From: Chloroflexota bacterium | GTDB taxonomy: Bacteria; Chloroflexota; Anaerolineae; JACRMK01 | DNA: 64,000 bases | Assembly (NCBI GenBank): GCA_016235055.1 | Contig: JACRMK010000066.1 | Span: 3,728-67,727 of the forward strand | Direction: 5' to 3' | In this document: positions 5,309 to 49,776 of the stretch, piece by piece | How positions within the stretch are numbered: the stretch's first letter is position 1 | How the letters are laid out: each line of letters opens with the position of its first letter | Made by a program: the position numbers and the translations under genes | Notes under the pieces: model-generated | Databases searched by the model: none | What the model was told of the DNA's origin: nothing | What the model saw: the letters and a program-made list of their open reading frames with translations, nothing else

Positions 5309-5327
5309 ACTTTTCGCATGTCCGCAT

Positions 5328-7109: not shown

Positions 7110-8249
7110 TTATTTCTTGAACCACAACTCGTGAATGATATTGTCCGCGCCGCGGTACACGACGTGCTGCGAGTGGTCGCCTTCCCAGGCAAAGGCCACC
7201 GGATCGCTGTCGGCGGCCGGCGCGCCCGCCATGCGGTTGATCGCTGCGCCATACTTCCACGATCCGCCGGTGATCCCCTTCGAGAACCACAACTCGTGCA
7301 CCTGCTTGTCCTGCCCGCGATAGACGATGTGCATTGTCTTGTCGTTTTCCCAGGAATAGCCCCACGGCATGCCGTCGGCCAGTGGCGCGCCGGTCTTGGC
7401 GCTGATCGCGCCGCCGTTCTTCCACTGCCCGCCCGATGACTTGGTAAACCAGAGCTCGTTGATCTGGTTGTCCGGCGCCCGGTAGATCACGTGCTGGGTG
7501 TGGTCGGCTTCCCAGGCGAAGCCCATCGCATCGCTGGCCGCCCCTGAGCCGCCGGCCTTGCCGTTGATCGCGCCGCCGCGCTTCCACTCGCCGCCGCGCA
7601 TGCCTTTGGTGAACCAGAGTTCGTGGATATCGTTGTCGGTGCCGCGGTAGATGATGTGCTGCGAGTGGTCATGCTCCCAAACGAAGCCCGCGACGTCGCC
7701 CGCCACCGCGGGTGACGCGATCGTGGCGTTGATGGCGCCGCCATACTTCCACTGGCCGCCGCCGTCTTTGGTGAACCACAACTCGTGCACGTTGCCCTCG
7801 ACACCGCGGTAGACGACGTGCATCGTATGGTCGTCTTCCCACGTGAAGCCAAACGGGTCGCCTGCCGCAGCCGGCGCGCCGGCCTTCTGCGATACCGCGC
7901 CGCCGTACTGCCACTTCGGGTTGTTCCCGCCGGCCTTGAACCACAACTCGTGGATTTCGTTGTCCGTCCCGCGATAGACGACGTGCTGAGTCCCGTCATG
8001 TTCCCACGCGAAACCGTGCGGGTCGCCCGCAGCCGCCGGTGCGCCGGCAATCGTGCTGAGCGCGCCGCCATAGGTCCACTTCGGGTTGCGGCCACCCTTC
8101 TTGAACCACAGCTCGTGAATCTGGTTGTCCACGCCCTTATACACGACGTGCTGTGTGTGATCAGCCTCCCATGCATAGGCGCCGGGCTGTCCAGTCGCGG
8201 CCGGGCCGCCGGCCTCATGGCTGATCGGGTTGTGTTTCCAGTTGGGCAT
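7110..8249 (-). CDS. seven-bladed beta-propeller lectin-like protein (PLL/PVL-type repeats)
   Basis: Seven ~47-aa repeats each carry H(V/I)(V/I)YRGxDNxIHELWF plus a conserved W...G segment. No signal peptide is evident. A GGAGGAG RBS is present. Confidence 0.6.
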   Translation of the reverse strand: MPNWKHNPISHEAGGPAATGQPGAYAWEADHTQHVVYKGVDNQIHELWFKKGGRNPKWTYGGALSTIAGAPAAAGDPHGFAWEHDGTQHVVYRGTDNEIHELWFKAGGNNPKWQYGGAVSQKAGAPAAAGDPFGFTWEDDHTMHVVYRGVEGNVHELWFTKDGGGQWKYGGAINATIASPAVAGDVAGFVWEHDHSQHIIYRGTDNDIHELWFTKGMRGGEWKRGGAINGKAGGSGAASDAMGFAWEADHTQHVIYRAPDNQINELWFTKSSGGQWKNGGAISAKTGAPLADGMPWGYSWENDKTMHIVYRGQDKQVHELWFSKGITGGSWKYGAAINRMAGAPAADSDPVAFAWEGDHSQHVVYRGADNIIHELWFKK

Positions 8250-27200: not shown

Positions 27201-27209
27201 ATTCAGAAC

Positions 27210-27286
27210 AAAACACCAAGACACAAAGGCACAAAGAAATCAGATTGGTTTTCCTTTGTGTCTCTGTGCCTCTGTGTCTCTGTGGT
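27210..27286. repeat. CACAAAG-unit palindromic hairpin (family member)
   Basis: CACCAAGACACAAAGGCACAAAGAAA … TTTGTGTCTCTGTGCCTCTGTGTCTCTGTGGTG. It lies between convergent genes. Confidence 0.55.
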
Positions 27287-30523: not shown

Positions 30524-30612
30524 AACCCAACACAAAGACACGGAGACACAAAGAAAAACCTGTGTTAAGGTGCTCTTGGTGCCTTTGTGACTTTGTGTTG
30601 GGTGTTGGGTTT
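30524..30612. repeat. CACAAAG-unit palindromic hairpin (family member)
   Basis: CCCAACACAAAGACACGGAGACACAAAGAAAAACC … GGTGCCTTTGTGACTTTGTGTTGGGTGTTGGG. It lies between convergent genes. Confidence 0.55.
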
Positions 30613-35129: not shown

Positions 35130-35370
35130 CGCCATCCTGAGCGTGAAGGCAGCACCGCGACTTTCAGCCGCGTCACGCGCGCGAAGGAGCCGAGCACCAC
35201 GCGCCGGGTTGTCATCCTGAGCGCGAAAGCAGCACGACACACTTACCAACACGCCATGCGCGCGAAGGACCTAAAATCGTCGCAGTCAAGCACCACACTG
35301 AGTAGAACTGGTTTGCAGCCATGCGCAGCTACTACGTCTACATCATGACCAACCCGCCGCGCGCCATCGT
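35130..35370. repeat. two tandem partial copies of the mini-element end. The second copy includes the GIY-YIG 5' UTR and the first ~17 codons.
   Basis: Module copies start at 35130 and 35211. A stub ATGCGCAGCTACTACGTCTACATCATGACCAACCCGCCG at 35321 diverges at the next module. Confidence 0.6.
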
Positions 35371-35878
35371 GTCATCCTGAGCGCGAAGGCAACACCTTGT
35401 TTTACACATCCGCCACGCGCGCGAAGGACCTAAAATCTTCTCAGCCAAGCACCACACTGAGTAGAATTAGCTTGCAGCCATGCGCAACTACTACGTCTAC
35501 ATTATGACCAACCCGCCGCATACGACGCTGTATGTTGGTATGACGAACGACCTGAAGCGCCGGATCAGCGAGCACAAGGGCAAACTCATCAAGGGTTATA
35601 CGAACGCGTACAACGCGACCTACCTGGTTCACTACGAGATTGCCGAGGACGCTGCAACGGCGATCGCGCGCGAGAAACAGATCAAAAGGTGGCTGCGAGC
35701 AAAGAAGATCGCCCTGATCGAATCGAACAATCCGGAGTGGAAGGATTTGAGCGTCGAGTGGCTGGACGATGAAGGCTGAGCCCGTTACGGGAAGATTCGG
35801 CCATTCGCAGATTTCAGGTCCTTCGCGCGCGAGGCGTTCTTGAACGGCAGCGCGTTGCCTTCGCGCTCAGGATGACAG
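35371..35878. mobile_element. ~510-bp mini-element: ~65-75-bp terminal inverted repeats (GTCATCCTGAGCGCGAAGGC-N27-CGCGCGAAGGACCTAAAATC) flanking a GIY-YIG nuclease gene
   Basis: The left end is at 35371-35445. The right end at ~35815-35878 is its reverse complement, with a different 27-nt internal segment. Confidence 0.55.
35480..35779 (+). CDS. GIY-YIG nuclease family protein (COG2827/YhbQ-like URI domain, ~99 aa)
   Basis: YYVYIMTNPPHTTLYVGMTNDLKRRISEH is the GIY…YIG…R…E signature. Confidence 0.85.
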   Translation: MRNYYVYIMTNPPHTTLYVGMTNDLKRRISEHKGKLIKGYTNAYNATYLVHYEIAEDAATAIAREKQIKRWLRAKKIALIESNNPEWKDLSVEWLDDEG

Positions 35879-35953: not shown

Positions 35954-36769
35954 ATGTCCGACCTGATCTCCCTCATGCAGGGCGCGCGCGTGTTCGACCT
36001 CGAACAATCGCGCCACGCCGGTATGCCGGTCCACCCGTCGCACAAGCCGGGCTACCTTTACACGCTCTACCGCCGGCACCAGGACACCTACGCACCGGAG
36101 CGCGACGGGCCGCGCTCGTCGGCCTCCGGCATGTTGTCGATGATGGAGCACACCGGCACGCACATCGACGCGCACGCGCACCAGGCCGACTCGCTGACGT
36201 TGTGCGGCGGCATCGCCGTCACGCCGCAGGTGCAAACGCCGGCCGGCTTCACGCGCGGCGGCGTCGAGGAGATCGCGCCGATCGTCGCGCGCGGCGTCCT
36301 GCTCGACGTGGCCGCCCAGCGCGGCGTGGACGAACTGCCCGCGCGCGAAGAGGTGCATGCGAACGAGCTGCAGGCGTGCGTTGCCCGGCAGGGCGTTTCG
36401 GTCGCGCGCGGCGATGTCCTGCTGGTGCGCGTCGGCAACGCGCGGCGCTGGGGCGACGAACCGGCCTATCTCGCCAGCGCCGGCATGGCGCGCGATGCGT
36501 CGCTCTGGGCGGCGGAGCGCGGCGTCGTCGCCGTCGGCGCGGACAACATGGCGTGGGACGTGATCGGCGCACGCGACCCGGAGGTCGGCCTCCTGCCGGG
36601 GCACCTCGAACTGCTGGCCCGGCGCGGCATCTACATCATCGAGAACCTCAACCTCGACGACCTGAGCCGCGAGCGTATTTACTCTTTCGTGTGCGTCTGC
36701 CTGCCGCTCAAGTTTCGCGGCGCGACCGGCTCGCCCGTGCGGCCAGTGGCGATCGTCCAGCAGGCGTAG
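35954..36769 (+). CDS. putative cyclase-family metal-dependent hydrolase (kynurenine formamidase-like)
   Basis: HTGTHIDAHAH matches the HxGTHxDxPxH cyclase-family motif. Confidence 0.7.
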   Translation: MSDLISLMQGARVFDLEQSRHAGMPVHPSHKPGYLYTLYRRHQDTYAPERDGPRSSASGMLSMMEHTGTHIDAHAHQADSLTLCGGIAVTPQVQTPAGFTRGGVEEIAPIVARGVLLDVAAQRGVDELPAREEVHANELQACVARQGVSVARGDVLLVRVGNARRWGDEPAYLASAGMARDASLWAAERGVVAVGADNMAWDVIGARDPEVGLLPGHLELLARRGIYIIENLNLDDLSRERIYSFVCVCLPLKFRGATGSPVRPVAIVQQA

Positions 36770-41576: not shown

Positions 41577-42073
41577 TGGAATACCGCTACCAGGTCGTGG
41601 ATACCGTGCGCGTCGTGCGCGTCGAGCGCGTCGAGCGCGACGGCGACGCTTACCGTGTGTCAATCGACGGCGGCGAGGATGTCGCGGTGCGCATGGCCGA
41701 CATGGAGGGTTCCACACTCGAGCTCGACCTCTACGGATCGCGGCGGCGCGTGCACGTCGTGCGCGATGGGGGCCGGCGCTTAGCGGCCGTTGGCTCGGAC
41801 GTGTTTGAGTTCGCGCTCGCGGAGCGCAGCGGCTCGCGCCGGGCGCAGGCCGCCGGCGGCGCGGGCGACCTGACGGCGCAGATGCCGGGGCAGGTCGTCG
41901 CCGTGCATGTCGCGGAGGGCGACATGGTCACGCACGGCCAGACGCTCGTCGTGCTCGAAGCGATGAAGATGGAGATGCGGGTCGTCGCGCCGCGCGCGGG
42001 CACGGTGCAGAAGGTGCTCGTCAGCGTTGGGCAGGTCGTCGAGCGAGGGCAGGTGCTGGTGGAGCTTGATTAG
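41576..42073 (+). CDS. biotin carboxyl carrier (biotinyl/lipoyl) domain protein, the C-terminal part of the carboxylase alpha subunit as a separate ORF
   Basis: VLEAMKMEMRV carries the AMKM biotinylation motif. Confidence 0.8.
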   Translation: MEYRYQVVDTVRVVRVERVERDGDAYRVSIDGGEDVAVRMADMEGSTLELDLYGSRRRVHVVRDGGRRLAAVGSDVFEFALAERSGSRRAQAAGGAGDLTAQMPGQVVAVHVAEGDMVTHGQTLVVLEAMKMEMRVVAPRAGTVQKVLVSVGQVVERGQVLVELD

Positions 42074-42083
42074 AAGAAATGAC

Positions 42084-42130
42084 AACACCAAGACACAAAG
42101 GCACAAAGAAAACCTGTTCCTTGTGCCTTC
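42084..42130. repeat. CACAAAG-unit hairpin (family member)
   Basis: CACCAAGACACAAAGGCACAAAGAAAACCTGTTCCTTGTGCC, between convergent genes. Confidence 0.5.
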
Positions 42131-42166
42131 GCACCGGGCAGATATTTGTGTCGGATGCGGCGAGTT

Positions 42167-42412
42167 CTATACCGCAAGCGCCATCGGACGTGTCGTCATC
42201 ACATCGGTTGCAGACAACCGCCGCACCTGCTCGGGCGCGAGCGTCAAAAGCGCGCGCGTGGAGCCATCGGGATTGACAAACTCAACATCGTAGGCCCGCG
42301 TCGGGACGGTGTAGATCTCGACCACGGTGCCTATATCGCCCGCCAGCACGCCATCCGCCGGAGCGCTTATCGTAGCCACAATCACTTCAAGCAGCGCTAT
42401 TTGGTCGCTCAT
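42167..42412 (-). CDS. DUF4926-like small protein
   Basis: …GDIGTVVEIYTVPTRAYDVEFVNPDGSTRALLTLAPEQV matches the DUF4926 pattern. Confidence 0.6.
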   Translation of the reverse strand: MSDQIALLEVIVATISAPADGVLAGDIGTVVEIYTVPTRAYDVEFVNPDGSTRALLTLAPEQVRRLSATDVMTTRPMALAV

Positions 42413-42771
42413 TGCTCCCTCTCATCTGACCGCGGTGCCGGTTCAATCGTCACCAGTTCGGCGTAGCCATTATCCCCTCGAAATATCCACACGACCGTCA
42501 CCTGGCGCACGGCTCCATTGGGTCCGGCTAAGGGTCCTGTGATCGTAAACTTACGCCCAAATAGTGATGGGCTACCCGGCTCGGCGCCGCGCGTAATCAA
42601 CTGCGATCGAATGTCATCAGCGAGTTCGTGCCACCGATCTCTCGAATAGCCCATCGCACGAAAGAATGCAGCCTTGTGTCTGCCGACCGCATGCTCGGGA
42701 TTGAGAACGTAATCCCTCAATTTCCGAGAGTCAATAACTGCGTTTTCGGCGTTCGGCAGTAGTTCGGGCAC
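42409..42771 (-). CDS. DUF6883-like protein (usual upstream partner of DUF4926)
   Basis: …SRKLRDYVLNPEHAVGRHKAAFFRAMGY… Its stop overlaps the DUF4926-like start (ATGA). Confidence 0.55.
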   Translation of the reverse strand: MPELLPNAENAVIDSRKLRDYVLNPEHAVGRHKAAFFRAMGYSRDRWHELADDIRSQLITRGAEPGSPSLFGRKFTITGPLAGPNGAVRQVTVVWIFRGDNGYAELVTIEPAPRSDEREQ

Positions 42772-42812
42772 AAGGCAATTATATCATGGCGTCCGTGATG
42801 GGTTCCATGCCA

Positions 42813-43712
42813 CTAGCCGGTGCCCGCGCCCGCCCGCGCGATCACCTTTTGCGCGGCGCGCAGCATCGGCATGTCCACCATCTTCCCCTCGTACGCGAAT
42901 GCGCCGGCGCCGGCGCGCTGGTTCGCCTCGAACGCCGCGATCAGCGCCTGCGCACGCGCCACGTCCTCGGCGGTCGGCGTGAACGCATCCATGATGACGG
43001 GCACCTGCCGCGGGTGGATCGCCGACTTGCCGCCGTAGCCCATGCCCAGCACCCGGCCGCACTCGGCGCGCAGGCCGTCGGTATCCTGCAGGTCGACGTA
43101 CACGCCGTCGAGCGCCTGCAGGCCGTTAGCCGCCGCCGCCGTCACAACCGCGCTGCGCGCGTAGAACACCTCCCAGCCTTCACGCGTGCGCGTCGCGCCC
43201 AGGTCGCCCGCCAGATCCTCCGAGCCGAGCAGAATTGCGTCCACGCGCGGGTCGGCCTCCGCAATCGGCGCGACGTTCAGCACCCCGCGCGCCGTCTCGA
43301 TCATCGCGATCAGGCGGATGCCGCCGGCTGGGAAGCCGTGCAGCGCCTCCAGTTGCCCGATCCACTCGCTGACAGCCTGCACCGTCTCGGCCGACTCGAC
43401 CTTCGGCACAACGTAGCCGTCGGGCTTGCCCGCGACGGTGCTCAGGATGTCCTCGCGCGTCCAGCCGGTGTCGAACGCGTTGACGCGCACCAGTTTCTCG
43501 GTGCGCCCGAACGCCACGCTGCCGAGCGCGGAGCGGATCGTGTCGCGCGCGGCTTGCTTGCGGTTGAGCGCAGTGCCGTCCTCGATGTCCATGATAACGG
43601 AATCGGGGCCGAGCGCGGCGCCCTTGGCGATCTTGTGCGCGTCGTCGCCCGGCATAAACAGCACGCAGCGGCGCGGGCGGCGGGCGGCGGGAACGGCAGG
43701 CAGTGGGGTCAT
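42813..43712 (-). CDS. HpcH/HpaI aldolase / CitE-like (citryl-/malyl-CoA lyase family)
   Basis: CVLFMPGDD…, MIETARGV and EDL signatures of CitE-like lyases. Confidence 0.8.
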   Translation of the reverse strand: MTPLPAVPAARRPRRCVLFMPGDDAHKIAKGAALGPDSVIMDIEDGTALNRKQAARDTIRSALGSVAFGRTEKLVRVNAFDTGWTREDILSTVAGKPDGYVVPKVESAETVQAVSEWIGQLEALHGFPAGGIRLIAMIETARGVLNVAPIAEADPRVDAILLGSEDLAGDLGATRTREGWEVFYARSAVVTAAAANGLQALDGVYVDLQDTDGLRAECGRVLGMGYGGKSAIHPRQVPVIMDAFTPTAEDVARAQALIAAFEANQRAGAGAFAYEGKMVDMPMLRAAQKVIARAGAGTG

Positions 43713-44182
43713 GGCAGGTCCGTTGCGGTTGATCGGGGCTTCTTGTAGAACAGCACCATGCGCTCGACTTCGAGCACAATCGCGCCGTGCTGGTTGCGGC
43801 CGAAGTGGCGCAGGCGCACCACGCCGCAGTCGGGCCGCGAGCGCGACTCGCGCTTCTCGACGACCTCGCTGGAGACGTAGAGCGTGTCGCCGTGGAAGAC
43901 CGGGTGCGGGTAAACGACCTTCTCGTACGACAGGTTCGCGACGATCGTGCCCTCGGTCAGGTCGGGCACCGTCATGCCGACCGCCAGGCCGAGCGTGAAG
44001 ATGCCGTTCATGATGCGGCGGCCAAACGGCGTGCGCGCGGCGAAGTCCTCATTGAGGTGCAACGGCTGCGTGTTCATCGTCAGCGACGAGAACAGCACGT
44101 TGTCCATCTCGGAGACGGTGCGCCCCATCGCGTGTTGGAACGCGTCGCCGACCGTCAGTTCGTCAAAGTATTTGCCGGGCAT
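43709..44182 (-). CDS. MaoC-like (R)-specific enoyl-CoA hydratase/dehydratase (single hotdog)
   Basis: …HLNEDFAARTPFGRRIMNGIFTLGL… gives the hotdog fold. It shares an ATGA overlap with the CitE-like gene. Confidence 0.8.
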   Translation of the reverse strand: MPGKYFDELTVGDAFQHAMGRTVSEMDNVLFSSLTMNTQPLHLNEDFAARTPFGRRIMNGIFTLGLAVGMTVPDLTEGTIVANLSYEKVVYPHPVFHGDTLYVSSEVVEKRESRSRPDCGVVRLRHFGRNQHGAIVLEVERMVLFYKKPRSTATDLP

Positions 44183-44520
44183 GGTTCAGTGCGCCCTTTC
44201 AGCAAAACCGTTTGGAACACGAATACCACGAAAGAACGCGAATGACACGAAACGGCGCGCCCCTTTCGCGTGCTTCGCGGCATCTCGTGTCGCTCGTGGT
44301 CCAATGCTTCTTCCCATCGCGTGCTGGAACGCGTCGCCGACCGCCAGTTCGTCAAAGGATTTGATGGGCATGGTTCAGTGCGCCCCTTCAGCAAAACCGT
44401 TTGGAACATGATTATCACGAAAGAACATGAAGACCACGAAACGAGATCAGCCGGTGGGACTCGTTCGCGTAATCGCTTGGAACCGAAACCCGCGATAGGA
44501 CGCGAATGACACGAAGTTGT
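44140..44520. repeat. direct ~125-bp duplication of the MaoC gene start plus the adjacent CACGAAA-unit hairpin, with a further degenerate hairpin copy
   Basis: Copy 1 is at 44140-44240 and copy 2 at 44320-44440 at ~90% identity. The stub ORF 44186..44371 begins MPIKSFDELAVGDAFQHAMGR, matching the MaoC N-terminus. Confidence 0.6.
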
Positions 44521-44543
44521 ATAACATACAGATGGCAGTAGCA

Positions 44544-46238
44544 TTAGACTCCAAGAAAGGAATTGAGCTTTTCAACCAAGAGACGATCTCTGGCTTGCAA
44601 GAACCTGTCGAAGTTCTTCACATGCCATAGCTTTCTGTCCAGTGGAACACACTGCTTCTCCAACTCCGTTCGATCGTAAGTAAGTCGGTCAAGATAGGTT
44701 GCCGGCTCTTCCATACTTATATCCAGATTTGTGTCCGCACGGATGATTGTGAGGTTGCCGAATATATTAATGGTCCCAGATTGATATCCGTGCCTACTGA
44801 GGAGTGCGCGTGGAAAGAAGTGATGAACCTGCAATTTCGCATTCTGTCCAATCACACTTCCATCTAGTGGCGTGCTATTGACCCAGTCGCTTCCGTTTTG
44901 GTTGCGAAGCATCGAGATGAACAATGCCATGATGGAGCCACTACGGCTGTTAGACTTTGACCGGAAATAACTTGCCCAGTTTGCAAATTGGATCCATCGA
45001 AACACGCCTATTTCCGGGCGTTTTCGCACTCAAGTGGGCAGATTGTTTCCGGTCAAACCCTTAGTATCAAAATCATCGACACTGAGTTTGCGAAGATAAC
45101 GGCGCGTTATGTCCCACAACTGATCAACAGATGCATTGGCTTCAAGTTTTCGTAGGATCTGATCAAGCTCAGAATACACTGAGCCGCTAAAGTATGTGCG
45201 AACGCCAGCAAGAAGAAGCCACTTACGAGCAACTTCACGCTCGGCCTTTGTCCACCCGCGTTTTTGCGCTTTGATATACACGAGTGGGATCAAAGCGTTA
45301 AATGATGGAACCCATGCCCCTGAATCCCATCTTACGGTCCCAGTCACAAAATCGATGACATCCTCCAAGCCACGAACAGTCCTGTGCCACGAGGCTCTGA
45401 TATCGCTTGGGCTTGAGTCGCCAAAGAGCTTTTCAGGCTTGCTGAAATTCATTCGATTTGTATGCACAGCCGCGAGACATTGCATAAGAAATGAGCGGCT
45501 GAATTGAAAATGCGGTCGATACTTGCTAAGAACATCAGACATCTCTTTGGAGGTCAGCCCCTCAACGCGATTGGCTAACTCAGCAAGGACAAGATCGCTC
45601 TTGTTCAGTTTGCGGCCAGTCGAATTGAACCGTATGAACAACTCGGTTGCATCTCTATAGTCGTCCGATTCATATTCGATGACGCTTATCACATAGTTGA
45701 GAACGTTTTGAAGTTGTGCGAGCATCTTGCGCACGGTCTCAGCATGCCGATCCTCATAATAGTCGTCTTCTTCCAGACGGTGCAGGTGCGCCGTGACGTC
45801 GAAATCCTTCGACAACACATCTGCGACGGATACATACCAAGGATCTGAGTCGTCTAGAAACTTGTCCCAATAAAACCGGCTATCTTCACGTTCACCATCA
45901 GTCCACAAATTGAACATTAAAGGATACTCGTCGCAAGCGTCTCGCACCTGTGAAACCGCCGTAAGCCGCTGTTGTCCATCGAGCAAATAGCCATAGAATC
46001 CGTCGAGCTTGCTGGGGGTCCGCCGACGTTTCTGTCCGTGGAACGCCTTACCTTTCACCTCGGTTTTGGGTTTCCAAACTAGCATTTGGCCAATCGGCAG
46101 GCCGCGATAGAGCGAATCAAAGAGGAGTTTGACGCTCTGCTTAGGCCACACAAAATCTCGTTGAATTTCTGGCAACTGAAGACGTTCGGAATCTTTGTAG
46201 TCAAGAAGTTCACAAAGTGTTTTGGTTGTCAGTCCCAT
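44544..46238 (-). pseudogene. GmrSD-family type IV restriction endonuclease gene (DUF262 plus DUF1524-like HNH) interrupted by an in-frame TGA at 45030-45032, lying in a low-GC island
   Basis: N-part: LPEIQRDFVW and LLDGQQRL (DUF262). C-part: VHHFFPRALL…N motif region (DUF1524-like). The two track ORFs abut in the same frame. GC here is ~45-50% against ~68% elsewhere. Confidence 0.65.
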
Positions 46239-46310
46239 TGTTTCGCCCCTTGAATGTGAAATGGCACGGCATTCGAGACTATTGCCAAGCCTATCTGAGT
46301 GCCCGAAATA

Positions 46311-46565
46311 TCACTGGAGACAGTCATCACAAGCCAATCTCGATCGGCATAAAGATTCGGCAATCAGTTCTTTCTCCATGTCGTCCAGCGAGATCGTGCC
46401 AGATGCTTCGATTGTGTCTAACCATTCGCGCACGATCTCGCGGTCTTCGGCGTGCTGCATGCGCCTGCGCGCGGCCATCAGCCACGCCAGCAACCGTGCG
46501 CGGCGCTTGCAGTTATGGACGCGACAGGAGATCAATGGCTTCCTGCGCTGGCCGACGTTCATCAT
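46311..46565 (-). CDS. hypothetical small protein in the low-GC island
   Basis: It is 84 aa with no recognisable domain. The RBS spacing is poor, so coding status is doubtful. Confidence 0.2.
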   Translation of the reverse strand: MMNVGQRRKPLISCRVHNCKRRARLLAWLMAARRRMQHAEDREIVREWLDTIEASGTISLDDMEKELIAESLCRSRLACDDCLQ

Positions 46566-46956
46566 GCCCTCCCGGTAAACGGTGCGATGCCGTTGGCAAG
46601 CAGTATACGCCGTTTTGCGCCGGCGCTCAAACTATTACGCCGTTCGTGGGGCTACCAGCAGAGTGCCGGTAGCCCTCAAAATATCGAGACCCGAAGGGTT
46701 TCGCCGGCACGGCCTTATCGCGATTGGTCCCTCAGGAACCCTTCGGGTCTGCCTAAACCGAAGCGCGCGGGAAGCGCCGTTTTGTCGGCGCTGCCATTTG
46801 GTGCTATTCTATGGCTAGTGAAGGCTCGCGGTCGTGGGCAGTTGCGCCACGACCGTTTTCTGTGCCTGCCAACCCGGACGGGTCAGAGACCCGTCCCTAC
46901 GCGCTGTTCACCGTTCACTGTTCACTGTCTTCTGACGACTGGCTACTGAGGCTCCC

Positions 46957-48798
<1,842 letters not shown>

Positions 48799-49703: not shown

Positions 49704-49776
49704 TCAACACAAAGCCACAAAGGCACAAAGAAATCTGAAATGTTCTTGGTGACTTTGTGTCTTGGTGTTGGCTTTT
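49704..49776. repeat. CACAAAG-unit palindromic hairpin (family member)
   Basis: CAACACAAAGCCACAAAGGCACAAAGAAATC … TTGGTGACTTTGTGTCTTGGTGTTGG. Confidence 0.55.

What the first reader, a model, noticed from the sequence alone, without database searches (positions are those of the whole stretch)
44530..46700. Low-GC island carrying a GmrSD-like type IV restriction gene broken by an in-frame TGA
GC drops from ~68% to roughly 45-50% over ~2.2 kb, inserted between the MaoC/CitE genes and typA and flanked by repeat and hairpin clutter. The island encodes a DUF262 (DGQQR, IQRDFVW) plus DUF1524-like protein. The reading frame is interrupted by one TGA at 45030-45032, with both halves otherwise intact. 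This is a recently acquired and very recently inactivated defence gene.
Basis: partly seen in the sequence, partly recalled or inferred. Interest (0 to 1): 0.55.

Follow-up and report, generated by a model that had tools for sequence, protein, structure and literature searches.

The report
Defence gene broken by tiny transposon
A foreign, low-GC gene for a BrxU/GmrSD-type anti-phage nuclease sits between two housekeeping genes of a high-GC Chloroflexi genome and was knocked out by a 107-base miniature transposon-like insert that carries the stop codon, not by a point mutation; this is an ordinary case of defence-gene gain and decay.

Summary
GC falls to 0.45-0.52 over about 44350-46420, against a window mean of 0.657. 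On the minus strand lies a DUF262/GmrSD_N gene (46238->44544) with an in-frame TGA at 45030-45032.

The cause of the break is not the one proposed. All 44 aligned homologues are single proteins of about 526-565 aa. The window gene carries an extra 37 codons (111 nt) that none of them has, and the TGA lies inside that insert. The insert is a 107-nt element (44954-45060) with 26-nt terminal inverted repeats, flanked by a 4-bp direct repeat TTAG. Removing the element and one TTAG gives an intact 527-aa ORF that aligns without gaps to the family. So this is a MITE-like insertion, not a nonsense mutation.

The repaired protein models well (pLDDT 83.5). Its best structural match is BrxU (7P9K), a type IV restriction enzyme.

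Relatives have typA directly beside maoC, with spacers of 270-654 bp. One relative has a toxin-antitoxin pair in that spacer, so the spacer is a variable hotspot and the island is a real insertion. No integrase or att repeats were found, and no second copy of the element was found anywhere.

Novelty is low: a new member of known kinds.

The parts
44444..46420 (.). Low-GC foreign cargo (about 2.0 kb; borders approximate) inserted in the typA|maoC intergenic spacer
   Evidence: GC profile; GC3 0.515 against 0.91 in host genes. Relatives have typA and maoC divergently adjacent, with spacers of 270-654 bp.
44544..46238 (-). Disrupted BrxU/GmrSD-like type IV restriction gene (527 native codons plus a 37-codon insert; TAA stop at 44544-44546)
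   Evidence: Translation. Pfam GmrSD_N 1.2e-28 and PADLOC HEC-05 9.7e-37. 868 homologues with E<=1e-5 among the 8000 candidates scored; the closest intact one is 63-68% identical. BrxU 7p9k by sequence profile at 1e-22 and by fold at 4e-13.
45033..46238 (-). N-terminal fragment, 402 codons: DUF262 NTPase domain (QR at 26-27, DGQQR at 87-91, F201xxxN205) plus helical linker, ending in 10 codons encoded by the TSD copy and the element
   Evidence: Identical to the annotated NCBI protein P0001, a 'DUF262 domain-containing protein' from a Chloroflexi MAG on a 69,697-bp contig.
45030..45032 (-). In-frame TGA, located inside the inserted element
   Evidence: and alignment A1.
44954..45060 (.). 107-nt MITE-like insertion (GC 0.486), non-coding, folds into one long hairpin
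   Evidence: A 37-codon gap in all homologues at exactly this place. DNA fold -26.3 kcal/mol, z = -6.3, 0 of 200 shuffles as stable.
44956..44981 (.). Left terminal inverted repeat (TTTGACCGGAAATAACTTGCCCAGTT)
   Evidence: the repeat finder I1: 26 nt, 85% complementary, arms 50 nt apart. The pattern occurs only at these two places in the window, against 0.00 expected.
45032..45057 (.). Right terminal inverted repeat (AAGTGGGCAGATTGTTTCCGGTCAAA)
44950..44953 (.). Target-site duplication TTAG, left copy (CTAA on the gene strand)
   Evidence: Read from the sequence. Excision of 44954-45064 restores ...DDFDT|NSRSG..., collinear with DFDTTNRSG of P0002 and P0003.
45061..45064 (.). Target-site duplication TTAG, right copy
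44544..45029 (-). C-terminal fragment, 161 codons counted from a GTG that directly follows the TGA. The first 26 codons come from the element and its TSD; the rest is the His-Me-finger (DUF1524-like) nuclease domain with HHFFP, N and TN
   Evidence: Family-invariant H, N, N columns. 20 of 45 family members hit Pfam GmrSD_C.
44124..44254 (.). Direct repeat copy 1: the true maoC start (first 59 nt of the CDS) plus 72 nt upstream
44313..44443 (.). Direct repeat copy 2 (89% identical): a decaying duplicate of the maoC 5' end. It reads MPIKSF where all relatives have the conserved MPGKY
44484..44515 (.). Third, partial copy of the maoC-upstream motif (…GCGAATGACACGAA), abutting the 3' end of the foreign gene
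46311..46565 (-). 84-codon ORF straddling the GC boundary; probably not a gene
   Evidence: No Pfam or PADLOC hit. No homologue other than itself among 1.84 billion representative proteins. GC3 is 0.72, intermediate between cargo and host.
46687..46750 (.). Hairpin with a perfect 14-bp stem and a 36-nt loop in the host-like typA upstream region
   Evidence: No Rfam match.
43709..44182 (-). Host flank: maoC-family dehydratase, followed by citE-like lyase at 42813-43712
46957..48798 (+). Host flank: typA/bipA GTPase
   Evidence: 83-86% nt identity to the typA genes of L089-L094, whose products carry GTP_EFTU and BipA_C domains.

Best explanation
A single-gene anti-phage system was acquired horizontally by a high-GC Chloroflexi genome. 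[quoted passage not shown] It landed in the divergent intergenic spacer between typA and maoC-citE, a spacer that holds different cargo in different relatives.

The intact enzyme would be a 527-aa protein with three parts: an N-terminal DUF262 (ParB-like NTPase) domain that regulates the enzyme, a helical linker, and a C-terminal His-Me-finger nuclease that cuts modified phage DNA.

The gene was then hit by a 107-nt miniature inverted-repeat transposable element (MITE-like). The element inserted at a CTAA/TTAG site and duplicated 4 bp. The insertion lies in the loop just before the first helix of the nuclease domain. Element plus duplication add 111 nt, which stays in frame but contains a TGA. 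Translation therefore stops after residue 402, and the NTPase/linker part is separated from the nuclease. The gene is a young pseudogene.

Shown: composition, synteny, domain content, the insert with its inverted repeats and duplication, and restoration of the ORF by in-silico excision.

Inferred: the enzymatic activity and substrate, loss of function, transposase-mediated origin of the insert, and the order of transfer and insertion.
For: Foreign origin:
- GC 0.48 against 0.657 for the window; GC3 0.515 against 0.91 in host genes.
- Relatives with 79-82% identical MaoC have typA directly next to maoC. The spacer is 270 bp in L089/L090 and 654 bp in L093/L094. In L091 the same spacer holds an MNT/HepT toxin-antitoxin pair.

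Family:
- GmrSD_N at 101 bits, against a cut-off of 33.2.
- PADLOC HEC-05 at 9.7e-37 for the N half and 4e-5 for the C-terminal end. HEC-05 corresponds to BrxU according to bioRxiv 10.1101/2024.01.29.577857.
- A profile of the family hits BrxU 7p9k at 1e-22.
- The AF2 model of the repaired protein has pLDDT 83.5. Its top Foldseek hits are BrxU at 4e-13 over the full length, then DndI at 4.8e-5.
- Motifs QR, DGQQR and FxxxN, and the H/N/N of the nuclease, are invariant in the family and retained here (motif definitions from PMC11411939).

Insertion:
- A 37-codon insert is absent from 14, and then 44, homologues, in a stretch that is otherwise length-invariant.
- 26-nt terminal inverted repeats, unique in the window.
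- Hairpin z-score -6.3.
- TTAG on both sides.
- In-silico excision gives a 527-aa ORF with no stop.
- The duplicated site fits YTAR, the 4-bp duplication typical of IS5 (PMC5009759).
- Natural IS and MITE insertions that inactivate cas genes are documented (PMC10359306).

Youth of the lesion: only 4 of 113 conserved columns deviate, all conservatively, within the range of intact homologues.
Against: - No second copy of the element and no parent IS with these ends was found. Searches covered the 64-kb window, GTDB representative genomes, JGI metagenome contigs, IMG/VR and PLSDB plasmids; all hits were single-arm chance matches. The 'transposable' label therefore rests on structure alone.
- The 4-bp duplication could be only TA plus two chance matches.
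- The C-terminal domain of this particular protein is below Pfam's gathering score (18.9 and 17.4 bits against 23).
- Its nuclease motif reads HHFFP, where BrxU has DHIYP.
- No reads were available, so assembly or sequencing error cannot be excluded directly.
- Loss of function is not shown: a GTG follows the TGA immediately.
Confidence: 0.8

Rival explanations
1. A simple nonsense mutation (for example TGG to TGA) in an otherwise native reading frame.
For: There is exactly one in-frame stop, and long open frames lie on either side of it.
Against: The stop lies inside a 37-codon segment that none of 44 homologues has. That segment has inverted-repeat ends and a 4-bp flanking duplication. Reverting the TGA would still leave a 37-residue insertion in front of the nuclease domain.
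Confidence: 0.02
2. A functional split system. The insertion converted the fused enzyme into a two-gene, GmrS-like plus GmrD-like arrangement. The C-terminal nuclease would be translated from the GTG that directly follows the TGA (stop-start coupling) and would assemble with the N-terminal NTPase fragment.
For: - TGA is followed at once by GTG, and both fragments are undecayed.
- A two-protein GmrSD-family system exists (TgvAB, PMC11411939).
- A sigma-70-like match (TTGATA-17-AACAAT) spans the element's edge at 45070-45042.
Against: - No Shine-Dalgarno-like purine run precedes the GTG.
- The count of promoter-like matches is within chance: 4 found against 2.2 +/- 1.7.
- Every other listed family member is one fused protein of 493-565 aa.
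- GmrSD of E. coli CT596, first reported as two genes, was later found to be a single protein.
- BrxU works as an intertwined homodimer, so cutting the chain before the nuclease domain is likely to be disruptive.
Confidence: 0.07
3. An assembly artefact. Either the low-GC segment is a chimeric join in a metagenome-assembled contig, or the 111-nt hairpin segment is a mis-assembly.
For: The source is a MAG contig. Composition changes abruptly. The element has no other copy anywhere.
Against: - The host sequence resumes on both sides at genes that are neighbours in four related contigs. A chimera would need two junctions returning to the same locus.
- The foreign gene is complete, with its own upstream region.
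- The insert has a clean TIR and TSD structure and sits exactly between two codons of a conserved motif. Assemblers do not produce this.
Confidence: 0.04
4. The gene was already broken when it was transferred. The MITE would have inserted in a previous, lower-GC host, so the Chloroflexi host never had an active copy. This is a variant of the best explanation, not an exclusive rival.
For: The element's GC is 0.486, equal to the cargo (0.48) and unlike the host (0.657). No copy of its ends occurs elsewhere in 64 kb of host DNA.
Against: Only 64 kb of the host genome could be inspected. Neither cargo nor element has ameliorated, so the timing cannot be resolved. No donor allele, with or without the element, was found; the closest homologue is 68% identical.
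Confidence: 0.5

Closest known systems
BrxU (Escherichia fergusonii pEFER; PDB 7P9K/7P9M), which corresponds to PADLOC HEC-05; a GmrSD-family type IV restriction enzyme
   Same: The domain order is the same: DUF262 NTPase with QR, DGQQR and FxxxN motifs, then a helical linker, then a C-terminal His-Me-finger nuclease. It is the best PDB hit by sequence profile (1e-22) and by fold (4e-13, full-length alignment). The best PADLOC model is HEC-05. Both are single-gene systems.
   Different: - Only about 17% identity in the structural alignment.
- 527 aa against 587 aa.
- The nuclease motif is HHFFP here and DHIYP in BrxU.
- The gene is not embedded in BREX.
- This copy is interrupted, and no activity has been tested.
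Classical GmrSD (Eco94GmrSD / EcoCT596 GmrSD) and SspE / DndI
   Same: They share the Pfam N-terminal domain GmrSD_N and the DGQQR motif. DndI (9jfl) is the second structural match at 4.8e-5.
   Different: The C-terminal domain of the window protein scores below the GmrSD_C gathering cut-off. There is no dnd or ssp neighbourhood.
GmrSD-like genes embedded in type I R-M or Hma operons (Payne et al., bioRxiv 10.1101/2024.01.29.577857; TgvAB in Vibrio cholerae VPI-2, PMC11411939)
   Same: The closest intact homologue P0002 (63-68% identical) and homologue P0012 (54-57%) sit between hsdR and hsdM-hsdS in the same orientation.
   Different: In the window the gene is solo, with no hsd genes nearby. 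The same is true of 4 of the 6 homologue contexts inspected. TgvAB needs two proteins.
MITEs derived from IS5-group insertion sequences (4-bp YTAR target duplication)
   Same: Small (107 nt) and non-coding. It has 26-nt terminal inverted repeats and a 4-bp duplication, TTAG/CTAA, that fits 5'-YTAR-3' (PMC5009759).
   Different: No parent IS and no sibling copies were found. The inverted-repeat sequence could not be compared with ISfinder. The assignment to the IS5 group rests on the duplication alone.
IS and MITE insertions that inactivate defence genes (cas genes; PMC10359306)
   Same: A mobile element sits inside the coding sequence of an immune nuclease and truncates it.
   Different: The target here is a type IV restriction gene in an uncultured Chloroflexi genome. 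No selective context, such as self-targeting, is demonstrated.

Membership tests
GmrSD family (type IV restriction; BrxU-like branch) | N-terminal DUF262 / GmrSD_N domain | tested here: met
   PF03235 at 101 bits against a cut-off of 33.2, residues 11-221. All 45 aligned family members match.
GmrSD family (type IV restriction; BrxU-like branch) | DUF262 motifs QR, DGQQR and FxxxN (nucleotide binding and hydrolysis) | tested here: met
   Q26-R27, D87-G-Q-Q-R91 and F201..N205 are all present, and are invariant or nearly invariant in A1 and A3. Motif list from PMC11411939.
GmrSD family (type IV restriction; BrxU-like branch) | C-terminal DUF1524 / GmrSD_C His-Me-finger nuclease with catalytic H and two N | tested here: inconclusive
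   - By sequence, this protein is below the cut-off: 18.9 and 17.4 bits against 23.
- 20 of 45 homologues hit PF07510, the best at 3.3e-6.
- H, N and N are invariant.
- The full-length Foldseek alignment to BrxU has probability 1.00.
- The motif is HHFFP rather than (D/E)HxxP.
GmrSD family (type IV restriction; BrxU-like branch) | Both domains in one uninterrupted polypeptide | tested here: not met
   A TGA after codon 402, inside a 111-nt insertion, breaks the chain. The condition is met only after in-silico excision.
GmrSD family (type IV restriction; BrxU-like branch) | Modification-dependent DNA cleavage and phage protection | not testable with these tools
   This needs biochemistry or plaque assays.
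Bacterial MITE (non-autonomous IS derivative) | Terminal inverted repeats | tested here: met
   26 nt, 85% complementary, at 44956-44981 and 45032-45057. Chance expectation is 0.00.
Bacterial MITE (non-autonomous IS derivative) | Target-site duplication directly flanking the element, with the target restored on excision | tested here: met
   TTAG at 44950-44953 and 45061-45064. Excision restores a gap-free ORF.
Bacterial MITE (non-autonomous IS derivative) | Small size and no coding capacity | tested here: met
   107 nt, folding into a single long hairpin.
Bacterial MITE (non-autonomous IS derivative) | Multiple dispersed copies and/or a parent IS with the same ends | tested here: not met
   There are no further copies in the window. 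Scans of GTDB representative genomes, JGI metagenomes, IMG/VR and PLSDB gave only chance single-arm hits or nothing. The rest of this MAG could not be searched.
Integrase-type genomic island | Atypical composition and absence from the same site in relatives | tested here: met
Integrase-type genomic island | Integrase or recombinase gene, flanking att direct repeats, tRNA or other defined target | tested here: not met
   The only ORFs in the cargo are the broken gene and an ORFan. The only tRNA in the window is at 5327. The two borders share no more than 8-9 nt, as shuffled sequence does.

The most novel reading that the evidence does not exclude
The hairpin element could act as a reversible switch or a domain splitter rather than as a dead end. 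The insertion is exactly in frame (111 nt). It sits in a loop between the regulatory NTPase/linker part and the nuclease, and it places a GTG directly after its TGA.

Two readings follow. Precise excision would regenerate an active BrxU-like enzyme, giving on/off control of a potentially self-toxic type IV nuclease. Alternatively, the two fragments could be co-expressed as a GmrS/GmrD-like two-subunit enzyme.

The element would also be the first member of a MITE family that is so far unsampled.
Probability: 0.06. Interest if true: 0.55.

Novelty: new member of a known kind. Interest (0 to 1): 0.27.

Why it matters
This is mainly a correction of annotation and interpretation. The public record calls only a 402-aa 'DUF262 protein'. 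In fact the locus is a complete 527-codon BrxU-like type IV restriction gene, split by a miniature transposon.

It is a clean natural example of three things:
- a single-gene defence system captured in a housekeeping intergenic hotspot, which holds a toxin-antitoxin pair in a relative;
- a mobile element disabling an immune nuclease, as reported for cas genes;
- a family whose closest members sit inside type I R-M operons also occurring solo.

None of this changes current understanding. It would matter more only if the split or excision proved functional.

Tried and rejected
1. Other copies of the 107-nt element or a parent IS. The pattern TTGACCGGAAANAANNTGCCC gave 36 loci in genome contigs, 52 in metagenome contigs and 0 in viral contigs. 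BLAST of the whole element against all of these loci found only the 21-27-nt pattern itself, on one arm, in unrelated taxa. blastn against PLSDB plasmids found nothing. The element also does not occur in the loci of the homologues.

2. Attachment sites. No direct or inverted repeats link the two borders above what shuffles give. An 18-nt, 78% inverted match (44491-44508 and 46423-46440) is no better than several others in the region.

3. tRNA or RNA genes at the borders. There are none: ARAGORN found one tRNA at 5327, and Rfam at E<=1 found nothing in 43500-47500.

4. The upstream 84-codon ORF as a regulator or antitoxin. It has no Pfam or PADLOC hit and no homologue in 1.84 billion representatives. 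It was rejected as a gene.

5. Alignment of the intergenic DNA with relatives to fix the exact borders of the cargo. Only the coding flanks align, at 79-86%.

6. A donor copy as the origin of the duplicated maoC 5' end. Copy 2 differs from every relative at conserved residues (G3I, Y5S). It therefore looks like a decaying local duplicate, not a functional donor allele.

7. A promoter created at the MITE junction. The number of consensus matches is within chance.
Full report
OBSERVATION

The compositional island is real. In 300-nt windows, GC is 0.68-0.74 in the citE and maoC genes. It falls to 0.45-0.52 from about 44350 to 46450 and returns to 0.61-0.70 in typA. Among all 1-kb windows of the 64-kb sequence the minimum is here: 0.477, against a mean of 0.657 and sd of 0.044. 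Third-position GC is 0.515 for the gene, against 0.91 for maoC, citE and typA.

The gene lies on the minus strand (46238->44544). A 402-codon ORF ends at a TGA, the complement of 45030-45032. The same frame then runs for 161 more codons to a TAA at 44544-44546. TGA is an ordinary stop in this host, because maoC and typA both end in TGA.

The N half is Pfam GmrSD_N (DUF262) at 1.2e-28 and carries EIQRDFVW and DGQQR. The C half hits GmrSD_C (DUF1524) only at 0.0014, below the gathering score. In PADLOC the N half is HEC-05 (9.7e-37, model positions 25-430 of 600), and the C half matches the end of the same model (positions 518-593).

The window is a contig of an NCBI 'Chloroflexi bacterium' MAG. 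Only the 402-aa fragment is annotated there (P0001).

WHAT BROKE THE GENE

A search with the read-through translation found 868 homologues with E<=1e-5 among the 8000 candidates scored. Apart from P0001, every one of the 120 listed is a single protein of 493-565 aa covering at least 93% of the query.

In alignments with 14 and then 44 of these homologues, the window protein has 37 extra codons that no homologue has. They lie in a stretch (…DDFDT|xRxSGPxMSLF…) that is otherwise free of length variation. The TGA lies inside this insert.

At the DNA level the extra 111 nt have a clear structure:
- a 107-nt element (44954-45060);
- terminal inverted repeats of 26 nt (44956-44981 and 45032-45057), 85% complementary;
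- a direct repeat TTAG on both sides (44950-44953 and 45061-45064).

The inverted-repeat pattern occurs nowhere else in the window, against 0.00 expected. The segment folds into one long hairpin of -26.3 kcal/mol, with z = -6.3.

Deleting 44954-45064 in silico gives a 527-codon ORF with no internal stop. It reads …SVDDFDTNSRSGSIMALF… and aligns gap-free with …DDFDTTNRSGPVMASF… of the nearest homologues.

Two independent lines, the protein-alignment gap and the DNA repeat structure, thus define the same 111 nt. This is the signature of a miniature inverted-repeat transposable element with a 4-bp target duplication. It is not a point nonsense mutation. TTAG/CTAA fits the 5'-YTAR-3' duplication typical of IS5 (PMC5009759). 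That is a lead to the parent family, not a test.

WHAT THE GENE IS

A profile of the family hits BrxU (PDB 7p9k) at 1e-22 over the DUF262 domain and linker. The weak second stretch of that match aligns the family's LQVHHFFP with BrxU's FHVDHIYP.

An AlphaFold2 model of the repaired protein, built from 45 sequences, has mean pLDDT 83.5. Its best PDB matches are BrxU (4e-13, probability 1.00, full-length alignment) and then DndI (4.8e-5). Isolated ParB and Cas9-HNH domains appear far below.

The motifs that mutagenesis has shown to be needed in relatives are conserved in the family and retained here: QR, DGQQR and FxxxN in DUF262, and H…N…N in the nuclease (literature).

The insertion site, T392|N393 of the repaired protein, falls in a loop between helix 387-390 and helix 396-409, just before the nuclease domain. 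The truncated product therefore lacks the nuclease.

Inferred mechanism of the intact enzyme, from the BrxU/GmrSD literature: NTP-regulated, modification-dependent cleavage of phage DNA that carries modified cytosines.

HOW YOUNG THE LESION IS

Apart from the insert there is no other stop or frameshift. At 113 columns that are at least 95% conserved among the other sequences, the repaired protein deviates at 4: T247S, W272F, I494V and Y506F. Intact homologues deviate at 2.7 +/- 2.4, with a maximum of 11. No decay is therefore detectable.

The element's GC (0.486) matches the cargo and not the host, and no other copy exists in the 64 kb. The insertion may therefore pre-date the transfer. I rate this at about even odds.

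THE ISLAND AND ITS SITE

Relatives whose MaoC is 79-82% identical show the ancestral arrangement, with typA divergently adjacent to maoC-citE:
- The spacer is 270 bp in L089 and L090.
- It is 654 bp in L093 and L094.
- In L091 the same spacer holds two small ORFs and an MNT (Polbeta)/HepT toxin-antitoxin pair.
- In the window the spacer is 2,774 bp.

Only the coding flanks align at the DNA level, at 79-86%. The return to syntenic host genes on both sides rules out a chimeric contig. It also makes this spacer a small hotspot for defence and TA cargo.

The cargo is about 2.0 kb. It comprises the gene, about 180 bp upstream and at most about 100 bp downstream.

No mechanism of integration is visible. 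There is no integrase or transposase, no tRNA, no Rfam hit, and no border repeats above chance. The 84-codon ORF that straddles the right GC boundary has no homologue among 1.84 billion representatives and is probably not a gene.

On the left, a 131-nt block is duplicated 189 bp away at 89% identity, with a third partial copy at 44484-44515. The block consists of 72 nt upstream of maoC plus its first 59 nt. The duplicate reads MPIKSF where all relatives have MPGKY, so it is a decaying local duplicate. All copies lie on one side of the cargo, so they are not its target duplication. Their origin is unexplained.

FAMILY CONTEXT

The closest intact homologue P0002 (63-68% identical) and homologue P0012 (54-57%) are embedded between hsdR and hsdM-hsdS of type I R-M operons. 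This matches the published observation that GmrSD-like genes are often nested in Hma and type I R-M systems. Four other homologues (P0003, P0033, P0069, P0098) are solo genes in unrelated neighbourhoods. A solo copy, as found here, is therefore normal for the family.

In the three homologue loci where it was computed, the gene also has lower GC than its flanks: 0.39-0.50 against 0.52-0.60.

THE ELEMENT IS AN ORPHAN

Exact-pattern scans with the consensus of the two arms found 36 loci in GTDB representative genomes, 52 in JGI metagenome contigs and none in IMG/VR. BLAST of the full element against all these loci extends no further than 21-27 nt of one arm, in unrelated taxa. None has the partner arm at a plausible distance. 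PLSDB gave nothing.

The multi-copy criterion for a MITE is therefore not met with the data at hand. The rest of the MAG could not be examined.

VERDICT

'Recently acquired' is well supported. 'Broken by an in-frame TGA' is true only superficially, because the lesion is a 111-nt MITE-like insertion.

This is a new member of known kinds: a BrxU-like type IV restriction gene, and the disruption of a defence gene by a mobile element, as documented for cas genes (PMC10359306). Interest is modest.

The only reading with more novelty is that the in-frame insertion, with a TGA followed directly by a GTG, acts as a reversible switch or produces a working two-piece enzyme. That reading is unsupported: no ribosome-binding site precedes the GTG, and the promoter-like matches are within chance.

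Noticed in passing
window 42167-42771 (-), within the lower-GC patch 41950-42850: A second small inserted islet. A DUF6883 ORF (42409-42771, Pfam 5.3e-26) overlaps by 4 nt a DUF4926 ORF (42167-42412, 2.2e-16). This TA-like pair lies between citE and the biotin-carboxyl-carrier gene. GC is 0.57-0.60, and GC3 of the DUF6883 ORF is 0.57. In relatives L089 and L090, citE and the carrier gene are only 12 bp apart.
   Followed up: partly
L091 4563-5998 and L092 284-715: In a related Chloroflexi contig the same typA|maoC spacer holds two small ORFs and an MNT (Polbeta)/HepT toxin-antitoxin pair. The HepT gene ends 3 nt before the maoC start. The spacer is therefore a recurrent landing site for defence and TA cargo.
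   Followed up: partly
window 20311, 26639, 35133, 35373, 49096: A dispersed intergenic repeat family of about 56-60 nt (CATCCTGAGCGCGAAGGCA…GCGCGCGAAGGATCTCGAATCTG), possibly a REP-like element of this genome.
   Followed up: no
window 27204-27244, 30529-30561, 42084-42116, 49706-49738: A dispersed A-rich repeat of about 33 nt (AACACCAAGACACAAAGGCACAAAGAAA) in intergenic regions, 73-91% identical between copies. The 'CACGAAAGAAC…GACACGAAA' motif upstream of maoC has a similar style.
   Followed up: no
window 7114-8227: Seven tandem copies of a unit of about 162-165 nt (55 codons), 65-72% identical. This is presumably a repeat-domain protein.
   Followed up: no
L098 6715-7293 and L099 5022-5600: In the type I R-M operon that carries homologue P0012, a Y1 transposase gene (PF01797, IS200/IS605-type) sits between the GmrSD-like gene and hsdM. 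It is another mobile element lodged inside a defence operon of this family.
   Followed up: no
window 46687-46750: A perfect 14-bp inverted repeat (AGACCCGAAGGGTT…AACCCTTCGGGTCT) with a 36-nt loop lies about 200 nt upstream of typA. One near-copy of the arm occurs at 36768. There is no Rfam match.
   Followed up: partly
window 35243-35360 and 35402-35519: A 118-nt direct repeat at 89% identity, spaced 159 nt apart. This is another local tandem duplication, similar in kind to the one at the maoC 5' end.
   Followed up: no
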